From the sequence record OL362041.1: a stretch of 64,000 nucleotides of DNA, one strand, 5' to 3'. This document shows, piece after piece, positions 25,868 to 34,908 of this stretch (positions within the stretch are counted from its first letter, which is position 1; each line of letters starts with the position of its first letter). Both the position numbers and the translations under genes were made by a program. Source of the stretch: Escherichia phage vB_Eco_OMNI12. The notes beneath the pieces were generated by a model that worked only from the letters and a program-made list of their open reading frames with translations, had not been told where the DNA came from and made no database searches.

Positions 25868-25921
25868 TCCTCATGTTATGTCAGTAAGACTACTATAACA
25901 CAACACGAGGGACTTGTAAAC
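25868..25921 (-). repeat. 54-bp repeated hairpin element containing the SD of the downstream gene (copy A)
   Basis: 53/54 identical to 41815..41868; 12-bp stem with SD GAGG in the 3' arm. Confidence 0.8.
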
Positions 25922-27978
25922 TACATCTTGAACTTTTTAGACATTCCGTTGATGTTAACCAAAGAAGCTAAGATTTGAGAAACTTCGTTTTCCTCTTCTT
26001 TTGATTCTTCTACAAGGAATTGATTAAATCCAGCCATTGGACGAACTTCACCAGTTTCCATTAGATGGTCGCCATCATATACTGATTCTTCTAATTGTTC
26101 AGAAGGAGGAACGATTGTACCTTCGATTAGATACTTGTTATAAGCAGTTTCTTTCATAAAGTAAGTACTTACTTTATTAATCTTCAGTAAAATTCCACGT
26201 GGTAGAATAACTTCAGCTTCTGACGGAAATCCTGATAAATGACCCGGAACGATAACTTTGATTCGCTCAGCTCCTTTAATTACCATACCCACGCTAGTTT
26301 CAGCATCTTCATTAGCATATGTAGAATGACTACCCATATGCATCAAATCTTCTGCATCAACGGAACCTTCTCCTTCACCAGAAAATACTGCGCCGGAATC
26401 ATCTAGAGCCATATAGTTTTTACCATGCTCACCGAAGATATTTGGTTTAAGCGATGTGGATACGAAGTTCTTGAAATAGAACATTTTATTTTCAATGTTA
26501 TGACGCAAAGTTTTAAAGGTAACTTCTTGTCCACGGTAAAGTGTAGTTCCTGGAGGAAGAACTGAACCTTTAGCGAATGCAGAATCAAGCGTCTCAATAT
26601 GTTTAATAGCTCGTTCCATATATTCTTCACGGGTAGAATCTGGTTTACCCAAAAGGAACGAGTTCATTTCAACATATGAATCTGCACAATAATCTTCAAT
26701 TACATCAGATTCAGCTTGAGTTAATCCTTTTGGAGTTACTTCAGTGCTTGCGTATTCATATGCCTGAGCAGCAGATTCATTAATCAATTTATAAATGCCA
26801 TTCATGACAAATTGAATAATAGCTGTCTTTTCATCTGGCGTAGCTTTAGAACCTTTAACCAAATCATTGATAATTTTCTTAATAACATCAAAGCTATTAG
26901 AAATATTAATATCAGCAAGATCGCTTAAAATTTTATCAGTCTTATAATCAAAGAATTCTTTATTCTTTAAATATTCTTGAGAACCTTGATATGTTATATC
27001 GCTCTGTAACTTGATAGATGGATCACGTAAACGTGCATGGGCTAATGCAATATGATTTCGGAAGCTTTCGAGTTCATAATCACTAGATTTAAAACGAGAA
27101 GCGCTTCTCATACCGCCTATAGCTCCTTTGCTGAAGTTTGAACCAATTTGAATAACGCCAGAGTTCATTGGTCCTTCTGCTTTATACACCGGAACTTTAG
27201 ATTCAAACTCTTGATATTTCTTAGCAGCGAAGCTATCACCCTGAAGTGAAGCATCAACAGTAGAATATTGAGCTTGTGCTGCTAATCGACGACTAATTTT
27301 AGTTTTCTGAATAACAGCTTGGTCCGTGCGCTTATCATTTTCTAAAGCAATAGAAGCAGCAACAGCAACAGCTTTAGGAACAGCATTACCTGTTTTAACA
27401 TCTACATAAACATCACCAACCTTTGATTCAACTTTTGTGAATAACTCAGTTGAAATAGGAGGTACACCTGGAATGTCTTCTAAATTGGCATTTTTACGAT
27501 AAACCATAATATATGCGTACTTTTTATCATAATCCCAGATTTCCTTTAAAAGAACATATCGACCTGCTCCTTTAGTACGTACTAAACGGTCAGCAATAAC
27601 TTGCATTTGACGAGCAGCGCCATTTGTTTTACTCTTTAGTACGCGGAATAAGCATGCATCAATTTTATACTGTTTCATTGTTTGAAGAGCAGTATCAAAA
27701 ACAGCGTTAATGACGCCAATTGGATTTCCACCCAAGTTTCTAAGTTTAACCAGTGATAATTTCTCGTTGACACCTATCATTACGATATGCATCATTTTAT
27801 CGCCTGGCTTAACGTTTTTATTCGTATCACCACCAGAGGTGTATGTACAAAATCTAAATCCAGGAAGCACGCTTTCTTCGCCGGCTTGAATAGCAAAAAT
27901 TTGTGGTATTTTATGCTTAGGATTTAAGTTAACAACCGGCGCCGAAGCGCCGTCAAATAATTCTGTAATAAGTTCCAT
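25921..27978 (-). CDS. alt: Alt-like ADP-ribosyltransferase, paralog 1
   Basis: 685 aa; N-terminus MELITELFD; C-terminal R-S-E type ART motifs (TLYRGQ ... FVSTSL ... EAEVILPRG). Confidence 0.85.
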   Translation of the reverse strand: MELITELFDGASAPVVNLNPKHKIPQIFAIQAGEESVLPGFRFCTYTSGGDTNKNVKPGDKMMHIVMIGVNEKLSLVKLRNLGGNPIGVINAVFDTALQTMKQYKIDACLFRVLKSKTNGAARQMQVIADRLVRTKGAGRYVLLKEIWDYDKKYAYIMVYRKNANLEDIPGVPPISTELFTKVESKVGDVYVDVKTGNAVPKAVAVAASIALENDKRTDQAVIQKTKISRRLAAQAQYSTVDASLQGDSFAAKKYQEFESKVPVYKAEGPMNSGVIQIGSNFSKGAIGGMRSASRFKSSDYELESFRNHIALAHARLRDPSIKLQSDITYQGSQEYLKNKEFFDYKTDKILSDLADINISNSFDVIKKIINDLVKGSKATPDEKTAIIQFVMNGIYKLINESAAQAYEYASTEVTPKGLTQAESDVIEDYCADSYVEMNSFLLGKPDSTREEYMERAIKHIETLDSAFAKGSVLPPGTTLYRGQEVTFKTLRHNIENKMFYFKNFVSTSLKPNIFGEHGKNYMALDDSGAVFSGEGEGSVDAEDLMHMGSHSTYANEDAETSVGMVIKGAERIKVIVPGHLSGFPSEAEVILPRGILLKINKVSTYFMKETAYNKYLIEGTIVPPSEQLEESVYDGDHLMETGEVRPMAGFNQFLVEESKEEENEVSQILASLVNINGMSKKFKM

Positions 27979-27981
27979 GAT

Positions 27982-30039
27982 TTATCCTTGAACGAACTTG
28001 TAAGGCATGTTTGCAATATCTATACAAGACGCAATAATTCCAAGAGATGATTCTACTTTCTGTTTAACATTTGATGAAACAAATGATGCAAAATCAACTC
28101 TGTCTTCTATTTCAATATCACCTGTCATTGTAACTACTTCGCCGGTTTCCATTAGACGGTCACCGTCATAAATTACCGATTCGGTGAGTTCTTCTGTGGT
28201 CATAACTTCAGCTTGAATAAGCTTGTTGTTAGTTTTAACTGTTCCATCATTGTAAGATGCATCGGTTATTTTATTAACTTTGACCATTAATCCACGTGGC
28301 AAAATGACTTCCATTTCATTTGAAGGTGCTAAACTTCCACCTGGTAAAACAACATTGACTTTATCAGCCCCAGTAATAACCCATCCAATTCCAACTAAAT
28401 TATCGCTAGAATTTACTAGTCCTTCATCAGTTTTATCAATAGAAACACTTAAACGCTTTTCGTCTGGTAAAACACCCACAGATGAATCAGTCATCCAGGT
28501 ACCAAAAATATTTGGATATAATGATGTTGACACAAAATTTCTAAAATAAAAAACTCGATTTTTTACCAGTGCTTCATATATTGAAGGTAACATTCGTTGT
28601 GAACGATACAAAGTAATACCTTTTGGTAATCGTTCACCATTTTTAAAGGCAGAATCTAAATTATCAATAGCTTTTTCTATATCAGATGCTGTCAAAATAC
28701 TTGTACGCTCATCTGGATTATATAATCCCAAAAGAGCGTTATTTATGTCTACATATCCTGAACTTACGTATTCACGAATTCCGCGTTTTTGTGCCGGTGT
28801 GTATTTAGATGAATCTTTATTTTCGACTATAGGATGTAGTGACCATCCAGCGGTAAGAGCATATCCACGCAATTCTCTTCGAATAATCTTTGTTTTTATT
28901 GCATTCCAAGAATTTTGTACTAACTCATTCGCAGCATCTTGATTTAAATGCGAATGCTTGTTAATGTTTCTTTCTAACCAAGCACCTTTATATTTTTCTA
29001 AAGTATCATCAACTATAGAAGCAATAGTTTCTAAAGTTTTTATTGAAGTAATAGATTCTTTTCGTAATCTTTCTAAAGCTTTATTTTTTATTTCTGCATT
29101 AACATCAGATTCTTTATCTTCAGGAATTATAGAAGCTTCTCTGAATGCCATTCCAGCTGTAACACTACTAAGAGCATTCTCTAATGCAAATCCTGAAGTA
29201 GAAATAACAGTTAATTCATTAGCGTCAGAAATTAAAGGAGCGTCAGCAGGTTTATTTAATTCTGCTGCTGAAGCCTCAAATTTTTGAAACATCGGCGTTT
29301 CAAATCTAGAAGATTCCAATGATTGACTTTGCGCAATTGCTCTACGGGAAATTTTAACTTTAACGATTACAGCTTGGTCAGAACGTTTATCATTTTCTTG
29401 TGCAATAGATGCTGCAATTGCCTCATTTTTGGTTACTTGAACTCCGGTATCTTTATTGATATAAACATCACCGACCTTCGATTCAACTTTAGTAAAGAGC
29501 TCGGTACTAATTTCCGGAACTCCTGGAATGTCTTCTAGTGATACATTTTTGCGATGTATAAGAATATATGCATACTTTTTATCATAATCCCAGAGTTCCT
29601 TAAGAAGGACGTATCTGCCACCTGAACGACTACGGATAAGTCTATCAGCAATAACTTGAATTTGTCGAGCTTGACCAGCGGTTTTAGACTTAAGAATACG
29701 AAGCATACAAGCATCAATTTTATACTGACGCATTGTTTGCATTGCAACAGTAAAAACTGAATTGATATAATTAATTGGGCTTGGACCAAGACCTTTTAAT
29801 TTAGCAATTGAACCTTTAGCAGTTAATGTAAAAGGAACAATATGCATCATTTTATCGCCCATCTTTAAATCGCGATTAGTATCACCTCCAGATGTATAGG
29901 TACATAAACGAAAACCTGGTTGTTCAATTGCATCATCAACATGAACTGAAAAAATTTGTGGTATTTTCTTCTTTGGATTTAAGTTTGTAATCGGAAGAGT
30001 AGTATCTTCGTCAAATAATTCTGTAATAAGTTCCATCAT
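27982..30039 (-). CDS. alt: Alt-like ADP-ribosyltransferase, paralog 2
   Basis: 685 aa; same N-terminus; ART motifs (TLYRSQ ... FVSTSL ... EMEVILPRG); late promoter upstream. Confidence 0.85.
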   Translation of the reverse strand: MMELITELFDEDTTLPITNLNPKKKIPQIFSVHVDDAIEQPGFRLCTYTSGGDTNRDLKMGDKMMHIVPFTLTAKGSIAKLKGLGPSPINYINSVFTVAMQTMRQYKIDACMLRILKSKTAGQARQIQVIADRLIRSRSGGRYVLLKELWDYDKKYAYILIHRKNVSLEDIPGVPEISTELFTKVESKVGDVYINKDTGVQVTKNEAIAASIAQENDKRSDQAVIVKVKISRRAIAQSQSLESSRFETPMFQKFEASAAELNKPADAPLISDANELTVISTSGFALENALSSVTAGMAFREASIIPEDKESDVNAEIKNKALERLRKESITSIKTLETIASIVDDTLEKYKGAWLERNINKHSHLNQDAANELVQNSWNAIKTKIIRRELRGYALTAGWSLHPIVENKDSSKYTPAQKRGIREYVSSGYVDINNALLGLYNPDERTSILTASDIEKAIDNLDSAFKNGERLPKGITLYRSQRMLPSIYEALVKNRVFYFRNFVSTSLYPNIFGTWMTDSSVGVLPDEKRLSVSIDKTDEGLVNSSDNLVGIGWVITGADKVNVVLPGGSLAPSNEMEVILPRGLMVKVNKITDASYNDGTVKTNNKLIQAEVMTTEELTESVIYDGDRLMETGEVVTMTGDIEIEDRVDFASFVSSNVKQKVESSLGIIASCIDIANMPYKFVQG

Positions 30040-31737: not shown

Positions 31738-32003
31738 TGTTCATCCTTTAGAGTTTGGTTTACAGCTCTATTATAAATCAATTCATCATTAAGCTCAGTC
31801 AAAGACCTGTGGTACGTGGTTCTAACTTTATTTCCTTGCATCCAGTGCTTGACGTAAATGAAACCTTGCTCTACACATTTTTTAAAAATTCGTTCGTCTT
31901 TTTGAGCTCGGAATTCTGGATTGCATCTAAAAAATTGATTTACGTGACCGTAATCACGTGTAGTATTACCTTCATTTTCATAAATAGTATGAACAACAAA
32001 CAT
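31734..32003 (-). CDS. hypothetical protein (30.1-like position)
   Basis: 89 aa ORF translationally coupled to neighbours. Confidence 0.5.
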   Translation of the reverse strand: MFVVHTIYENEGNTTRDYGHVNQFFRCNPEFRAQKDERIFKKCVEQGFIYVKHWMQGNKVRTTYHRSLTELNDELIYNRAVNQTLKDEQ

Positions 32004-32857
32004 TAGAATGCTCCTTGGAAAATATTATCACCACTACCACTAGTAAGTCTATTAAAATACCCTGCATCGCCAGGCTTAATATAACTCCATGTATGAAATG
32101 GATGCACATGATATGGATGTGTATAATATGGATGATATGGATTATAAGGATTAAATCCAGGAGTTCTCCAAGTAGTGTTCCAACGAAAAGAATCGTTTTT
32201 AATCATCTTTTCAATTACATCTTTTATAGCTTTTTCACTATCAAAACTTTCTTTATTTTCCTTTGGTGAAAAAAGCTTATTTTCTACATCATTCCATGTA
32301 TAAACTCGCTGTGCAGTTTTTGGAATACTGTCACGCTCCCCTCGAGCCATCCAATAAACTGGAACATTTAATATTTCACTCGCATGATCGCAGTGGTGAG
32401 CGAGATCGTCAATATAACAAATCACGTTATATTTCTCTTTTGCCTTTTTGAACAACTCTTCTTTTGAAGAATCATGACCACACATCATTACTTCTGAGAA
32501 GGCACCAGGAAAAAGAGCATTCAAATTAAATTGACGATTCAACAGAGCGTCAATAGAATCACCCAGCGCTGTAACAGCTACAAAATTATAATCTTCTTTT
32601 AATTTGTTAATTACACACAGGGCATCTTTATATGGAGACAAGTAACGAATAAAATCTGAACGATTGTATTTTTCAATTAACTTGACGCCAAGTTCTTCAT
32701 CACAATTAAAGAGTTTACCAGGAGAAATAAATTTCTCATCTTGGATCATTTTTAAAATATGTTCTAACGGAAGATTATATTTCTGAGCAAAATAAGGAAG
32801 GCCTGATTGCCAGCTTAAACATACTCCATCAATATCAGTTAAAATAGTAGGCTTCAT
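32003..32857 (-). CDS. HAD-superfamily phosphatase-like protein with His/Pro/Tyr-rich C-terminal tail
   Basis: 284 aa; N-terminal DxD motif (LTDIDGV); tail NPYNPYHPYYTHPYHVHPFHTW. Confidence 0.55.
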   Translation of the reverse strand: MKPTILTDIDGVCLSWQSGLPYFAQKYNLPLEHILKMIQDEKFISPGKLFNCDEELGVKLIEKYNRSDFIRYLSPYKDALCVINKLKEDYNFVAVTALGDSIDALLNRQFNLNALFPGAFSEVMMCGHDSSKEELFKKAKEKYNVICYIDDLAHHCDHASEILNVPVYWMARGERDSIPKTAQRVYTWNDVENKLFSPKENKESFDSEKAIKDVIEKMIKNDSFRWNTTWRTPGFNPYNPYHPYYTHPYHVHPFHTWSYIKPGDAGYFNRLTSGSGDNIFQGAF

Positions 32858-33318
32858 AGAGAGTCTCTTAATAGGTTTAACACATCAATAAATTCAGCTT
32901 CGGTTAATATTGTATCATCTTTTGTTAGACCACTAGCCATGCTGTGCTTCAAAACTTTTCCTTTCGAGGCGTGTAATGCATCACGAAAGCCCTTGTTTTG
33001 GATCGCTGCTTCAAAATATGCATTTGTGTATAATTCTTTCCATGCTGGGGAGTATCTTGAAAACGGAACTCCAAGCCAGAAGAGGGTCCCACGGTCCTGA
33101 GCTCTAGCATAAGACCTTCCAGCTTGTTGGGCGGCAAGCCCGGATAACCCAAATATACGACGTTGTTGTTCAGCATTTTTCACCTTGCATCCTTGGAAGA
33201 ATCCTTCAAGACCTCCGAATTGAATACCATCCATGACGAAAGGCCATTGGGCGAAATTACTTAATGCACACGATGGCCATCTAAAATTGCTTCTAATCTC
33301 TAACTCAGACATTTTCAA
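32854..33318 (-). CDS. NADAR / YbiA-like (DUF1768) domain protein
   Basis: 154 aa; motif LSNFAQWPFVMDG...EGFFQGCK resembles YbiA FSNFAAWP..DG...EHYFQAQK (from memory). Confidence 0.55.
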   Translation of the reverse strand: MKMSELEIRSNFRWPSCALSNFAQWPFVMDGIQFGGLEGFFQGCKVKNAEQQRRIFGLSGLAAQQAGRSYARAQDRGTLFWLGVPFSRYSPAWKELYTNAYFEAAIQNKGFRDALHASKGKVLKHSMASGLTKDDTILTEAEFIDVLNLLRDSL

Positions 33319-33511
33319 TACTTATAATTTCAACATCAGCCCAATGACCATAGCAAGGAAGACGAAATTCAACTGGCCAGTTAGGGTCCTTTTCTAATAT
33401 AATAGACTTAACTTGTGGTTCTTCATGTTCATCAGTATATGGATTTTTATCTGTTACTTTATATGTGACCTTAATGTACTGAATTCCAAAAATCTTATTA
33501 ATTATATTCAT
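33305..33511 (-). CDS. hypothetical protein
   Basis: 68 aa ORF in packed 30.x block. Confidence 0.4.
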   Translation of the reverse strand: MNIINKIFGIQYIKVTYKVTDKNPYTDEHEEPQVKSIILEKDPNWPVEFRLPCYGHWADVEIISIENV

Positions 33512-34465: not shown

Positions 34466-34798
34466 TTATTTTACTACTTTCCAATGCTGCATGTCAAGTT
34501 TACCAACTTTTTTCATCTTCTCAATTAAGCGTTCGGCACGTTGGCGAGCTGTAACATAATACCATTCACCTAATTCATTTTGTTCAATTTTTCCAACGAT
34601 TACTGTATTCAATTCATAAATCCAACCAGTAAAGAAATTATGAACTTGAATTGTAAAGGTGAAATCTGTTCCCATACCTTCTGTTGTTTCTACTTCAATA
34701 ATATCACCTTCAACTGCCATTAAGAACCACATAGTTTCATCATATTTACCATTGAAGCATTTAGTTTTAACTGCAGCGTTCAGATTAATCGTTTTCAT
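34466..34798 (-). CDS. hypothetical protein
   Basis: 110 aa ORF. Confidence 0.45.
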   Translation of the reverse strand: MKTINLNAAVKTKCFNGKYDETMWFLMAVEGDIIEVETTEGMGTDFTFTIQVHNFFTGWIYELNTVIVGKIEQNELGEWYYVTARQRAERLIEKMKKVGKLDMQHWKVVK

Positions 34799-34885
34799 TT
34801 TATTCTCCTTTGTTTGTGTAAGATAATACTATCACAAAGGAACCATACTGTAAACAACTTTATGCAATCTTTGGAAAATAAAAAA

Positions 34886-34903
34886 GGACTCCCGAAGGAG
34901 TCC
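34886..34903 (-). terminator. terminator hairpin downstream of the 30.9-like ORF
   Basis: GGACTCC-CGAA-GGAGTCC; on minus transcript UUCG loop then U-run. Confidence 0.6.
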
Positions 34904-34908
34904 TCAAC

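What the first reader, a model, noticed from the sequence alone, without database searches (positions are those of the whole stretch)
32854..33318. NADAR/YbiA-like protein in the gene 30.x block, a possible reverser of nucleic-acid ADP-ribosylation
The 154-aa ORF carries a motif (LSNFAQWPFVMDG ... EGFFQGCK) that I recognise as resembling the YbiA/NADAR (DUF1768) family. NADAR enzymes have been reported to remove ADP-ribose from guanine bases, so a phage copy is a plausible counter-measure to DarT-type defence toxins. The family assignment is from memory and the function is inference.
Basis: partly seen in the sequence, partly recalled or inferred. Interest (0 to 1): 0.5.

Follow-up and report, generated by a model that had tools for sequence, protein, structure and literature searches.

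The report
Phage T4 AdfN (gp30.3) NADAR ortholog
This gene is the near-identical counterpart of phage T4 gene 30.3 (AdfN), an enzyme already shown by experiment to strip ADP-ribose from guanine in phage DNA and so defeat the bacterial DarTG1 defence.

Summary
The ORF is real. The window is a T4-like (Tequatrovirus) genome. The protein is 148/152 identical to T4 gp30.3, sits in the same 30.4-30.3-30.2-30.1-30 gene order, and scores 230 bits against Pfam PF08010 (Phage_30_3).

It gives no direct hit to the Pfam NADAR model PF08719. Four other results still place it in the NADAR superfamily:
- A profile of the family finds E. coli YbiA as its best PDB match (E 0.0023).
- 17 of 145 family representatives also match PF08719.
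- The catalytic residues E36, K43 and the phage-type H123 are present.

Published work names T4 gp30.3 AdfN. It removes guanine-linked ADP-ribose from DNA and RNA in vitro. It is necessary and sufficient for T-even phages to plate on hosts carrying DarTG1.

Verdict: interpretation supported, already known, low interest. This allele has not itself been tested, and it carries a rare L39F change between the two catalytic residues.

The parts
32854..33312 (-). adfN / gene 30.3 coding sequence, 152 aa plus a TGA stop at 32856-32854. It encodes a single-domain phage-type NADAR ADP-ribosylglycohydrolase.
   Evidence: ORF. PF08010 E 8.3e-69. 148/152 identical to T4 NP_049816. NADAR fold.
33313..33318 (-). 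The two in-frame codons (TTG AAA) that the mechanical ORF call adds upstream of the ATG. They are probably not translated.
   Evidence: versus the T4 annotation and the published residue numbering E36/K43 (PMC11825919).
33205..33207 (-). Codon GAA for Glu36, the catalytic glutamate that contacts the distal ribose. It corresponds to PnNADAR E43 and E. coli C7 NADAR E88.
   Evidence: Sequence. Invariant in alignments A1 and A3. E in 144 of 149 representative hits. Aligned to YbiA E48. E36A mutant in PMC11825919.
33184..33186 (-). Codon AAG for Lys43, the lysine that binds the pyrophosphate. It corresponds to PnNADAR K50 and E. coli C7 NADAR K95.
   Evidence: Sequence. K in 135 of 149 representative hits and R in 9. 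Aligned to YbiA K55. K43A mutant in PMC11825919.
32944..32946 (-). Codon CAC for His123, at the end of the last beta-strand (model strand 120-123). This is the residue that marks the phage branch; it is Glu in YbiA-type and Asp in DarG1-type NADARs.
   Evidence: Sequence. H in 140 of 149 representative hits. Strand E120-123 in the model. Branch definition in PMC11543638 and PMC11125620.
33196..33198 (-). Codon TTC for Phe39, an unusual substitution (Leu in T4) on the helix between E36 and K43.
   Evidence: L39F relative to T4; this position is L in 134, I in 9, V in 3 and F in 1 of 149 representative hits.
32857..32901 (-). Codons for the C-terminal helix (about residues 138-152). RB69 lacks this helix because of a frameshift, and it is needed for full activity. 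It is intact here.
   Evidence: Helix H138-151 in the model. Full-length alignment to T4. RB69 truncation and the truncated T4 construct in PMC11825919.
32003..32857 (-). Gene 30.2, the downstream neighbour, whose start overlaps the 30.3 stop as ATGA. It has an N-terminal HAD-superfamily phosphatase domain resembling 5'(3')-deoxyribonucleotidases, followed by a disordered tail rich in Pro, Tyr and His. It is context only and is not shown to be part of the mechanism.
33305..33511 (-). Gene 30.4, the upstream neighbour, 68 aa. Its stop overlaps the 30.3 start by 8 nt. No function is known.
   Evidence: phrog_2042, unknown function.

Best explanation
The gene is the ortholog of T4 gene 30.3 (adfN). 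It encodes a 152-aa protein that is a bare NADAR (YbiA-fold) domain.

Proposed mechanism: when the phage infects a cell carrying the DarTG1 toxin-antitoxin defence, the DarT1 toxin attaches ADP-ribose to the N2 of guanines in phage DNA, which blocks replication. AdfN binds the ADP-ribose. K43 holds the pyrophosphate. E36 and H123 flank the distal ribose. The enzyme hydrolyses the N-glycosidic bond between ribose and guanine, which restores unmodified DNA so that replication can proceed. In effect it is an orphan antitoxin carried by the phage.

Shown here: gene identity, fold, conserved residues and synteny. Shown in the literature for the T4 protein: the enzyme activity and the anti-DarTG1 phenotype. 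Inferred: that this allele, with four substitutions, does the same.
For: - Identity: 148/152 identical to T4 gp30.3, with no gaps.
- Synteny: same order 30.4-30.3-30.2-30.1-30 as in T4. The window is 99.7% identical to Tequatrovirus vB_EcoM_G29 over this stretch.
- Family: PF08010, 230 bits.
- Sequence link to NADAR: a profile of the family has YbiA (2b3w) as its best PDB match, E 0.0023, with E36 and K43 aligned to YbiA E48 and K55. 17 of 145 PF08010 representatives also match PF08719 NADAR at E<=1e-3.
- Residues: E36, K43 and H123 are invariant among close homologs. They are present in 144, 135 and 140 of 149 representative hits.
- Literature: T4 and T2 deletions lose plating on DarTG1 hosts, ectopic expression rescues RB69, purified protein removes ADP-ribose from DNA, and E36A and K43A weaken it (PMC11825919). 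T4 NADAR hydrolyses guanine-linked ADP-ribose on DNA and RNA, but not the thymidine- or cytidine-linked forms (PMC11125620, PMC11833690, PMC12945103).
- Naming: UniProt calls the T4 protein 'Anti-DarT factor NADAR'.
Against: - This protein gives no direct hit to PF08719 at E<=1.
- The YbiA-type NCBIfam model TIGR02464 scores only 12.5 bits against a cut-off of 73.7.
- The allele differs from T4 at four positions. One of them, L39F, lies between the two catalytic residues, at a position that is Leu in 134 of 149 representative hits and Phe in 1. Its activity has not been tested.
- The T4 protein does not rescue uninfected E. coli from DarT1. It only partly rescues phages outside the T-even group (PMC11825919, PMC11125620). 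The mechanism in vivo is therefore incompletely understood.
Confidence: 0.9

Rival explanations
1. The enzyme is a NADAR, but its main job in infection is not repair of DarT1-modified DNA. Instead it removes guanine-linked ADP-ribose from RNA, or it degrades soluble ADP-ribose derivatives that host immune systems use as signals or toxins.
For: T4 NADAR also hydrolyses guanosine-ADP-ribose on RNA in vitro (PMC11833690). Iyer et al. argued from genome context that phage NADARs mainly target low-molecular-weight ADP-ribose derivatives (PMC9503650). Relatives of the gp30.3 domain are fused to Tpt1/KptA, histidine phosphatase, HD, SLOG and NT5C domains, which points to RNA-end or nucleotide chemistry. 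Two Alt-type ADP-ribosyltransferase genes lie 0.2-4 kb downstream of gene 30 in the same early region.
Against: Deleting the gene in T4 and T2 abolishes plating specifically on DarTG1 hosts, and DNA ADP-ribosylation is reversed in vitro (PMC11825919). The two roles are not mutually exclusive. No soluble substrate has been shown for the phage branch.
Confidence: 0.12
2. It is a YbiA-type N-glycosidase that clears reactive riboflavin-pathway intermediates. This is the function named by the NCBIfam model that gave the weak hit.
For: The weak hit to TIGR02464 'riboflavin biosynthesis intermediates N-glycosidase' covers residues 14-49, E 0.13. YbiA is the best structural match.
Against: The score is 12.5 bits against a cut-off of 73.7. 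The residue that defines the YbiA branch, Glu in the last strand, is His here (PMC11125620). There are no riboflavin genes nearby. The anti-DarTG1 phenotype is demonstrated for T4 (PMC11825919).
Confidence: 0.02
3. This particular allele is weakened or inactive because of the rare L39F change on the catalytic helix, much as RB69 carries a defective 30.3.
For: Position 39 is Leu in 134 of 149 representative hits and Phe in only 1. It lies between E36 and K43, next to the nearly invariant Q40. The exact sequence was seen on only 2 contigs, against 165 for the T4 sequence. Defective natural alleles exist, such as the RB69 frameshift (PMC11825919), and several truncated database entries appear.
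Against: Leu to Phe is a conservative hydrophobic change. The reading frame, length, C-terminal helix and all three catalytic residues are intact. Nine phage records carry a protein at least 99% identical, so the allele persists in a viable lineage.
Confidence: 0.07

Closest known systems
T4 gp30.3 = AdfN (anti-DarT factor NADAR; UniProt NADAR_BPT4; Pfam PF08010 Phage_30_3)
   Same: 97% identical over all 152 residues, with the same length and the same neighbours. It has the same catalytic residues E36, K43 and H123 and an intact C-terminal helix.
   Different: Four substitutions: L39F, V47A, Q114H and I125M. L39F is rare in the family. The activity of this allele has not been tested.
DarG1 antitoxins (BC4488-type NADARs, e.g. 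Geobacter lovleyi NADAR 8BAT and E. coli C7 NADAR)
   Different: There is no adjacent DarT1 toxin gene and no N-terminal extension. The last strand carries His where DarG1 has Asp. The T4 protein cannot replace DarG1 in uninfected cells (PMC11825919, PMC11125620).
E. coli YbiA (2B3W; TIGR02464; YbiA branch of NADAR)
   Different: About 20% identity. His replaces the Glu that defines the branch. The protein scores far below the TIGR02464 cut-off. YbiA is a host riboflavin-intermediate N-glycosidase and does not protect against DarT1 in vivo (PMC11125620).
Other phage NADARs: AdfN-Bas32 (T5-like phages) and AdfN-Bas60 (Vequintavirinae)
   Same: They are also orphan phage NADARs that neutralise DarTG1 and are specific for guanine (PMC11825919).
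   Different: They belong to other NADAR clades, were acquired independently, and work without any further phage factor (PMC11825919).

Membership tests
NADAR superfamily (YbiA fold) | An alpha+beta YbiA fold: a core of about five helices flanked by small beta-hairpins. | tested here: met
NADAR superfamily (YbiA fold) | A catalytic Glu and Lys seven residues apart on the first core helix (PnNADAR E43/K50; E. coli C7 NADAR E88/K95). | tested here: met
   E36 and K43 are present. They are invariant among close homologs, occur in 144 and 135 of 149 representative hits, and align to YbiA E48 and K55.
NADAR superfamily (YbiA fold) | Detectable sequence homology to recognised NADAR proteins at the level of the family. 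| tested here: met
   The profile of alignment A1 finds YbiA as its top PDB hit, E 0.0023. 17 of 145 PF08010 representatives also match PF08719, best E 1.2e-6.
Pfam PF08719 (NADAR domain model, YbiA and BC4488 branches) | A direct match of this protein to the PF08719 model. | tested here: not met
   No PF08719 hit at E<=1; only PF08010 is reported. The gp30.3 branch has its own Pfam model, so this excludes the protein from that model but not from the superfamily.
Phage gp30.3 / AdfN branch (PF08010) | A match to PF08010 above the gathering score. | tested here: met
   230.2 bits against a cut-off of 36, E 8.3e-69, covering profile positions 1-138 of 138.
Phage gp30.3 / AdfN branch (PF08010) | His in the last beta-strand, where YbiA has Glu and DarG1 has Asp. 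| tested here: met
   H123 lies at the end of model strand 120-123. It is invariant among close homologs and present in 140 of 149 representative hits. The definition comes from PMC11543638 and PMC11125620.
Phage gp30.3 / AdfN branch (PF08010) | Orthology with T4 30.3: high identity and the conserved position between 30.4 and 30.2 in the DNA-ligase block. | tested here: met
   148/152 identical. Same gene order in T4, G29, Bp7, MN01 and NBG1.
Phage gp30.3 / AdfN branch (PF08010) | An intact C-terminal helix, which is lost in the inactive RB69 allele. | tested here: met
   Full length of 152 aa, aligned to T4 through L152. Helix 138-151 in the model.
Phage gp30.3 / AdfN branch (PF08010) | Guanine-ADP-ribose glycohydrolase activity and protection from DarTG1. 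| not testable with these tools
   Shown for the T4 protein only (PMC11825919, PMC11125620, PMC11833690, PMC12945103).
YbiA branch (TIGR02464, riboflavin-intermediate N-glycosidase) | A score above the equivalog cut-off, and Glu in the last strand. | tested here: not met
   12.5 bits against a cut-off of 73.7. His is found at the Glu position.
DarG1 antitoxin (BC4488 branch) | Encoded next to a DarT1 toxin, with an N-terminal extension and Asp in the last strand. | tested here: not met
   The neighbours are 30.4 and 30.2, and no DarT domain was found. The protein is the bare 152-aa core. His is found at the Asp position.

The most novel reading that the evidence does not exclude
The published work leaves one question open: AdfN-T4 needs an unidentified factor specific to T-even phages for full activity (PMC11825919). 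The most novel reading my evidence does not exclude is that this factor is the product of the adjacent gene 30.2.

For it:
- Gene 30.2 is translationally coupled to 30.3 through an ATGA overlap.
- I find it to be a HAD-superfamily phosphatase resembling 5'(3')-deoxyribonucleotidases.
- The 30.3-30.2 pair is kept in five genera of T4-like phages.
- One metagenomic gp30.3-like protein also carries an NT5C domain.

Against it:
- 30.2 occurs next to the ligase gene without any 30.3 in Shewanella phage Thanatos-1 and in a metagenomic contig.
- KP15 has two small genes between 30.3 and 30.2.
- gp30.3-like genes in Rhizobium and Ralstonia phages have no HAD-annotated neighbour.

The pairing may therefore be inherited synteny only.
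Probability: 0.07. Interest if true: 0.5.

Novelty: already known. Interest (0 to 1): 0.12.

Why it matters
Scientifically this adds little, because the function of T4 gene 30.3 was established in 2024-2025. Three practical points remain:
- The nearest GenBank genomes, and most of the 40 records sampled from the 1,510 phage records that encode a homolog, still label it 'hypothetical protein'. The gene can now be annotated as adfN, an anti-DarTG1 counter-defence.
- A routine Pfam scan does not report 'NADAR' for this branch. Automated screens for anti-defence genes that key on PF08719 will miss it.
- The rare L39F allele and the neighbouring HAD phosphatase are cheap experimental follow-ups to the open question of which T-even factor potentiates AdfN.

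Tried and rejected
- **Direct family scans.** Pfam gave only PF08010 and no NADAR hit. NCBIfam gave a sub-threshold TIGR02464 hit. PHROGs gave only families of unknown function. None of these names the function.
- **gp30.2 as a fusion partner of gp30.3-like domains.** A profile of the gp30.2 family found nothing among the 164 proteins held at that point, P0001-P0164, which include the gp30.3-like representatives. phmmer with the neighbouring proteins found only mis-called fusions of adjacent T4 genes. I did not identify which protein carries the NT5C domain reported.
- **NADAR-HAD linkage beyond T4-like synteny.** This was not supported.
- **The overlapping ORF 30.3' as a conserved second gene.** It is open in the window, T4, Bp7 and MN01, but a stop codon interrupts it in Mosigvirus NBG1 even though gp30.3 there is intact. 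The evidence that it codes for protein is weak.
- **Promoter and terminator scan.** The number of sites is no greater than in shuffled sequence, so I draw no conclusion about transcription from it.
- **Active-site geometry.** I could not check it in the model, because no tool exposes the coordinates.

Full report
**1. Observation**

The ORF table shows an ORF at 32854..33318 on the minus strand, 154 aa from a TTG start. The sequence shows an ATG two codons further in, at 33312-33310. With that start the protein is 152 aa. The start overlaps the TGA of the upstream gene by 8 nt, and the stop overlaps the ATG of the downstream gene as ATGA (32854-32857). This tight packing is typical of the T4 30.x block.

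**2. Where the window comes from**

A 1.2-kb stretch around the ORF is 99.7% identical to Escherichia phage vB_EcoM_G29 and its relatives, and it matches 656 phage records. G29 is a Tequatrovirus. The surrounding ORFs are the T4 genes 30 (DNA ligase, 487 aa), 30.1 (DUF3045), 30.2, 30.4-30.9, rIII and 31.

**3. Identity of the protein**

- Pfam gives a single hit, PF08010 Phage_30_3, at E 8.3e-69 and 230 bits against a cut-off of 36.
- Against the T4 record, the protein is 148/152 identical to gp30.3 (NP_049816) with no gaps. The differences are L39F, V47A, Q114H and I125M.
- The exact sequence is already in NCBI as a 'hypothetical protein' of phage vB_Eco_OMNI12. UniProt names the T4 sequence 'Anti-DarT factor NADAR'.

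**4. Is it a NADAR?**

There is no PF08719 hit at E<=1. The YbiA-type NCBIfam model reaches only E 0.13 and 12.5 bits, against a cut-off of 73.7. Four independent lines nevertheless establish membership of the superfamily.

(a) A profile built from eight gp30.3 proteins has E. coli YbiA (2b3w) as its top PDB match, E 0.0023. The alignment pairs LSNFAkWPFvmDG with FSNFAAWPIKVDG, and places E36 and K43 on YbiA E48 and K55.

(b) An exhaustive HMMER search found 703 cluster representatives at E<=1e-3. All 145 proteins scanned (the window protein plus 144 representatives) match PF08010, and 17 of them also match PF08719 NADAR.

(d) The residues described as catalytic in solved NADARs are present. 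[quoted passage not shown] Here they are E36, K43 and H123. All three are invariant among close homologs and are present in 144, 135 and 140 of 149 representative hits. A His at the third position is the published hallmark of the phage gp30.3 branch. YbiA-type proteins have Glu there and DarG1-type proteins have Asp (PMC11125620).

**5. Function**

The function has been published for the T4 protein.

- Johannesman et al. (PMC11825919) mapped DarTG1 resistance in T2 x RB69 and T4 x RB69 chimeras to gene 30.3 and renamed it adfN.
- Deleting it from T4 and T2 abolishes plaques on DarTG1 cells. Plasmid expression restores RB69.
- E36A, K43A and a truncation mimicking the RB69 allele each weaken the rescue.
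- The purified protein, but not the E36A mutant, removes ADP-ribose from DarT1-modified DNA.
- It does not counter DarTG2, which modifies thymidine.
- Independent in vitro work shows that T4 NADAR hydrolyses guanine-linked ADP-ribose on DNA (PMC11125620) and on RNA (PMC11833690), but not the cytidine-linked form (PMC12945103).

The window's protein is full length, keeps the C-terminal helix (model helix 138-151) and has all three catalytic residues. The same function is therefore the natural inference.

**6. Caveats**

- The activity of this allele is inferred. L39F sits between E36 and K43 at a position that is Leu in 134 and Phe in 1 of 149 representative hits. The other three substitutions fall at variable positions.
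- AdfN-T4 does not protect uninfected E. coli from DarT1. It only partly rescues phages outside the T-even group. The authors therefore propose an unknown T-even cofactor (PMC11825919, PMC11125620).

**7. Neighbourhood**

- The downstream gene 30.2 (284 aa) has no Pfam hit. Its homologs are named HAD hydrolase or 5'(3')-deoxyribonucleotidase by some sources.
- A family profile of gp30.2 hits mouse cytosolic deoxyribonucleotidase at E 0.011, across the DxDG motif.
- A confident model (pLDDT above 90 for residues 1-190, with a disordered tail from about residue 225) gives 110 Foldseek hits at E<=1e-3. All 50 listed are HAD-fold proteins. The deoxyribonucleotidases show the lowest rmsd values.
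- The 30.3-30.2 pair is kept in Tequatrovirus, Dhakavirus, Gaprivervirus, Mosigvirus and an Acinetobacter T4-like phage.
- However, 30.2 also occurs beside the ligase gene without 30.3. Two small genes separate the pair in KP15. gp30.3-like genes outside Straboviridae have no such neighbour.
- I therefore treat a functional link between the two genes as a low-probability idea, not a result.

**8. Verdict**

The protein is a member of the phage gp30.3/AdfN branch of the NADAR superfamily. It is not a YbiA-type enzyme and not a DarG1 antitoxin. Novelty: already known. Interest: low.

Noticed in passing
window 32003-32857 (-): Gene 30.2, labelled 'hypothetical' in T4 and G29, is a HAD-superfamily phosphatase resembling 5'(3')-deoxyribonucleotidases. 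D8, D10 and G11 (the DxDG motif) are invariant. It ends in a disordered tail of about 60 residues rich in Pro, Tyr and His. Its ATG overlaps the 30.3 stop as ATGA. In distant T4-like phages it stays next to the DNA ligase gene more consistently than next to 30.3.
   Followed up: yes
window 32949-33176 (-): This is the overlapping ORF 30.3', 75 aa, in the +1 frame inside 30.3. T4 annotates it as 'internal translation'. It is open in the window, T4, Bp7 and MN01. A stop codon interrupts it in Mosigvirus NBG1, although gp30.3 there is intact. The evidence that it codes for protein is weak.
   Followed up: partly
window 25921-27978 (-) and 27982-30039 (-): Two tandem 685-aa Alt-type ADP-ribosyltransferase genes, both matching PF03496 and 41% identical to each other, lie just beyond gene 30. 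T4 has one full alt gene plus the remnants alt.-1 and alt.-2 of an old duplication. This phage and G29 keep a complete second paralog, which G29 annotates as 'hypothetical protein'.
   Followed up: partly
window 33196-33198 (-), codon 39 of 30.3: Phe occurs at a position that is Leu in 134 of 149 family representative hits, on the helix carrying the catalytic residues E36 and K43. The exact protein was seen on only 2 contigs, against 165 for the T4 sequence.
   Followed up: partly
representative proteins P0021-P0164: In metagenomic proteins the gp30.3-type NADAR domain is fused to Tpt1/KptA RNA 2'-phosphotransferase, NT5C, histidine phosphatase, HD, YpsA-SLOG, ASCH and BspA-type LRR domains. 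Some proteins carry it in two or three copies. I did not identify the individual architectures.
   Followed up: no
proteins P0007, P0012, P0015, P0016, P0018, P0019: Several database entries from T4-like phages are truncated gp30.3 proteins of 86-109 aa, or apparent fusions with neighbouring genes. Examples come from phages SV76, vB_Eco_NR1, UGJNEcP4 and RPN226. This suggests that frameshifted alleles like the one in RB69 are not rare. How often they occur, and whether they track the presence of DarTG1 in hosts, was not examined.
   Followed up: no
cluster look-up: The 90%-identity cluster that holds this protein (1,386 members) mixes 152-aa gp30.3 sequences with 278-284-aa gp30.2 sequences under a gp30.2 representative (P0165). 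This is probably a clustering artefact caused by gene calls that run through both genes. Member counts for this cluster should not be trusted.
   Followed up: no
window 34884-34905 (-) and 34468-34497 (-): A strong terminator-like hairpin (9 pairs followed by a T-run) lies just after 30.9 and coincides with a terminator annotated in G29. An 11-of-12 sigma-70-like site (TTGACA, 18 nt, TAAAAT) lies upstream of 30.7 and could drive early transcription of the block from 30.7 to 30. These are consensus matches only, and the total number of sites is no greater than in shuffled sequence.
   Followed up: no
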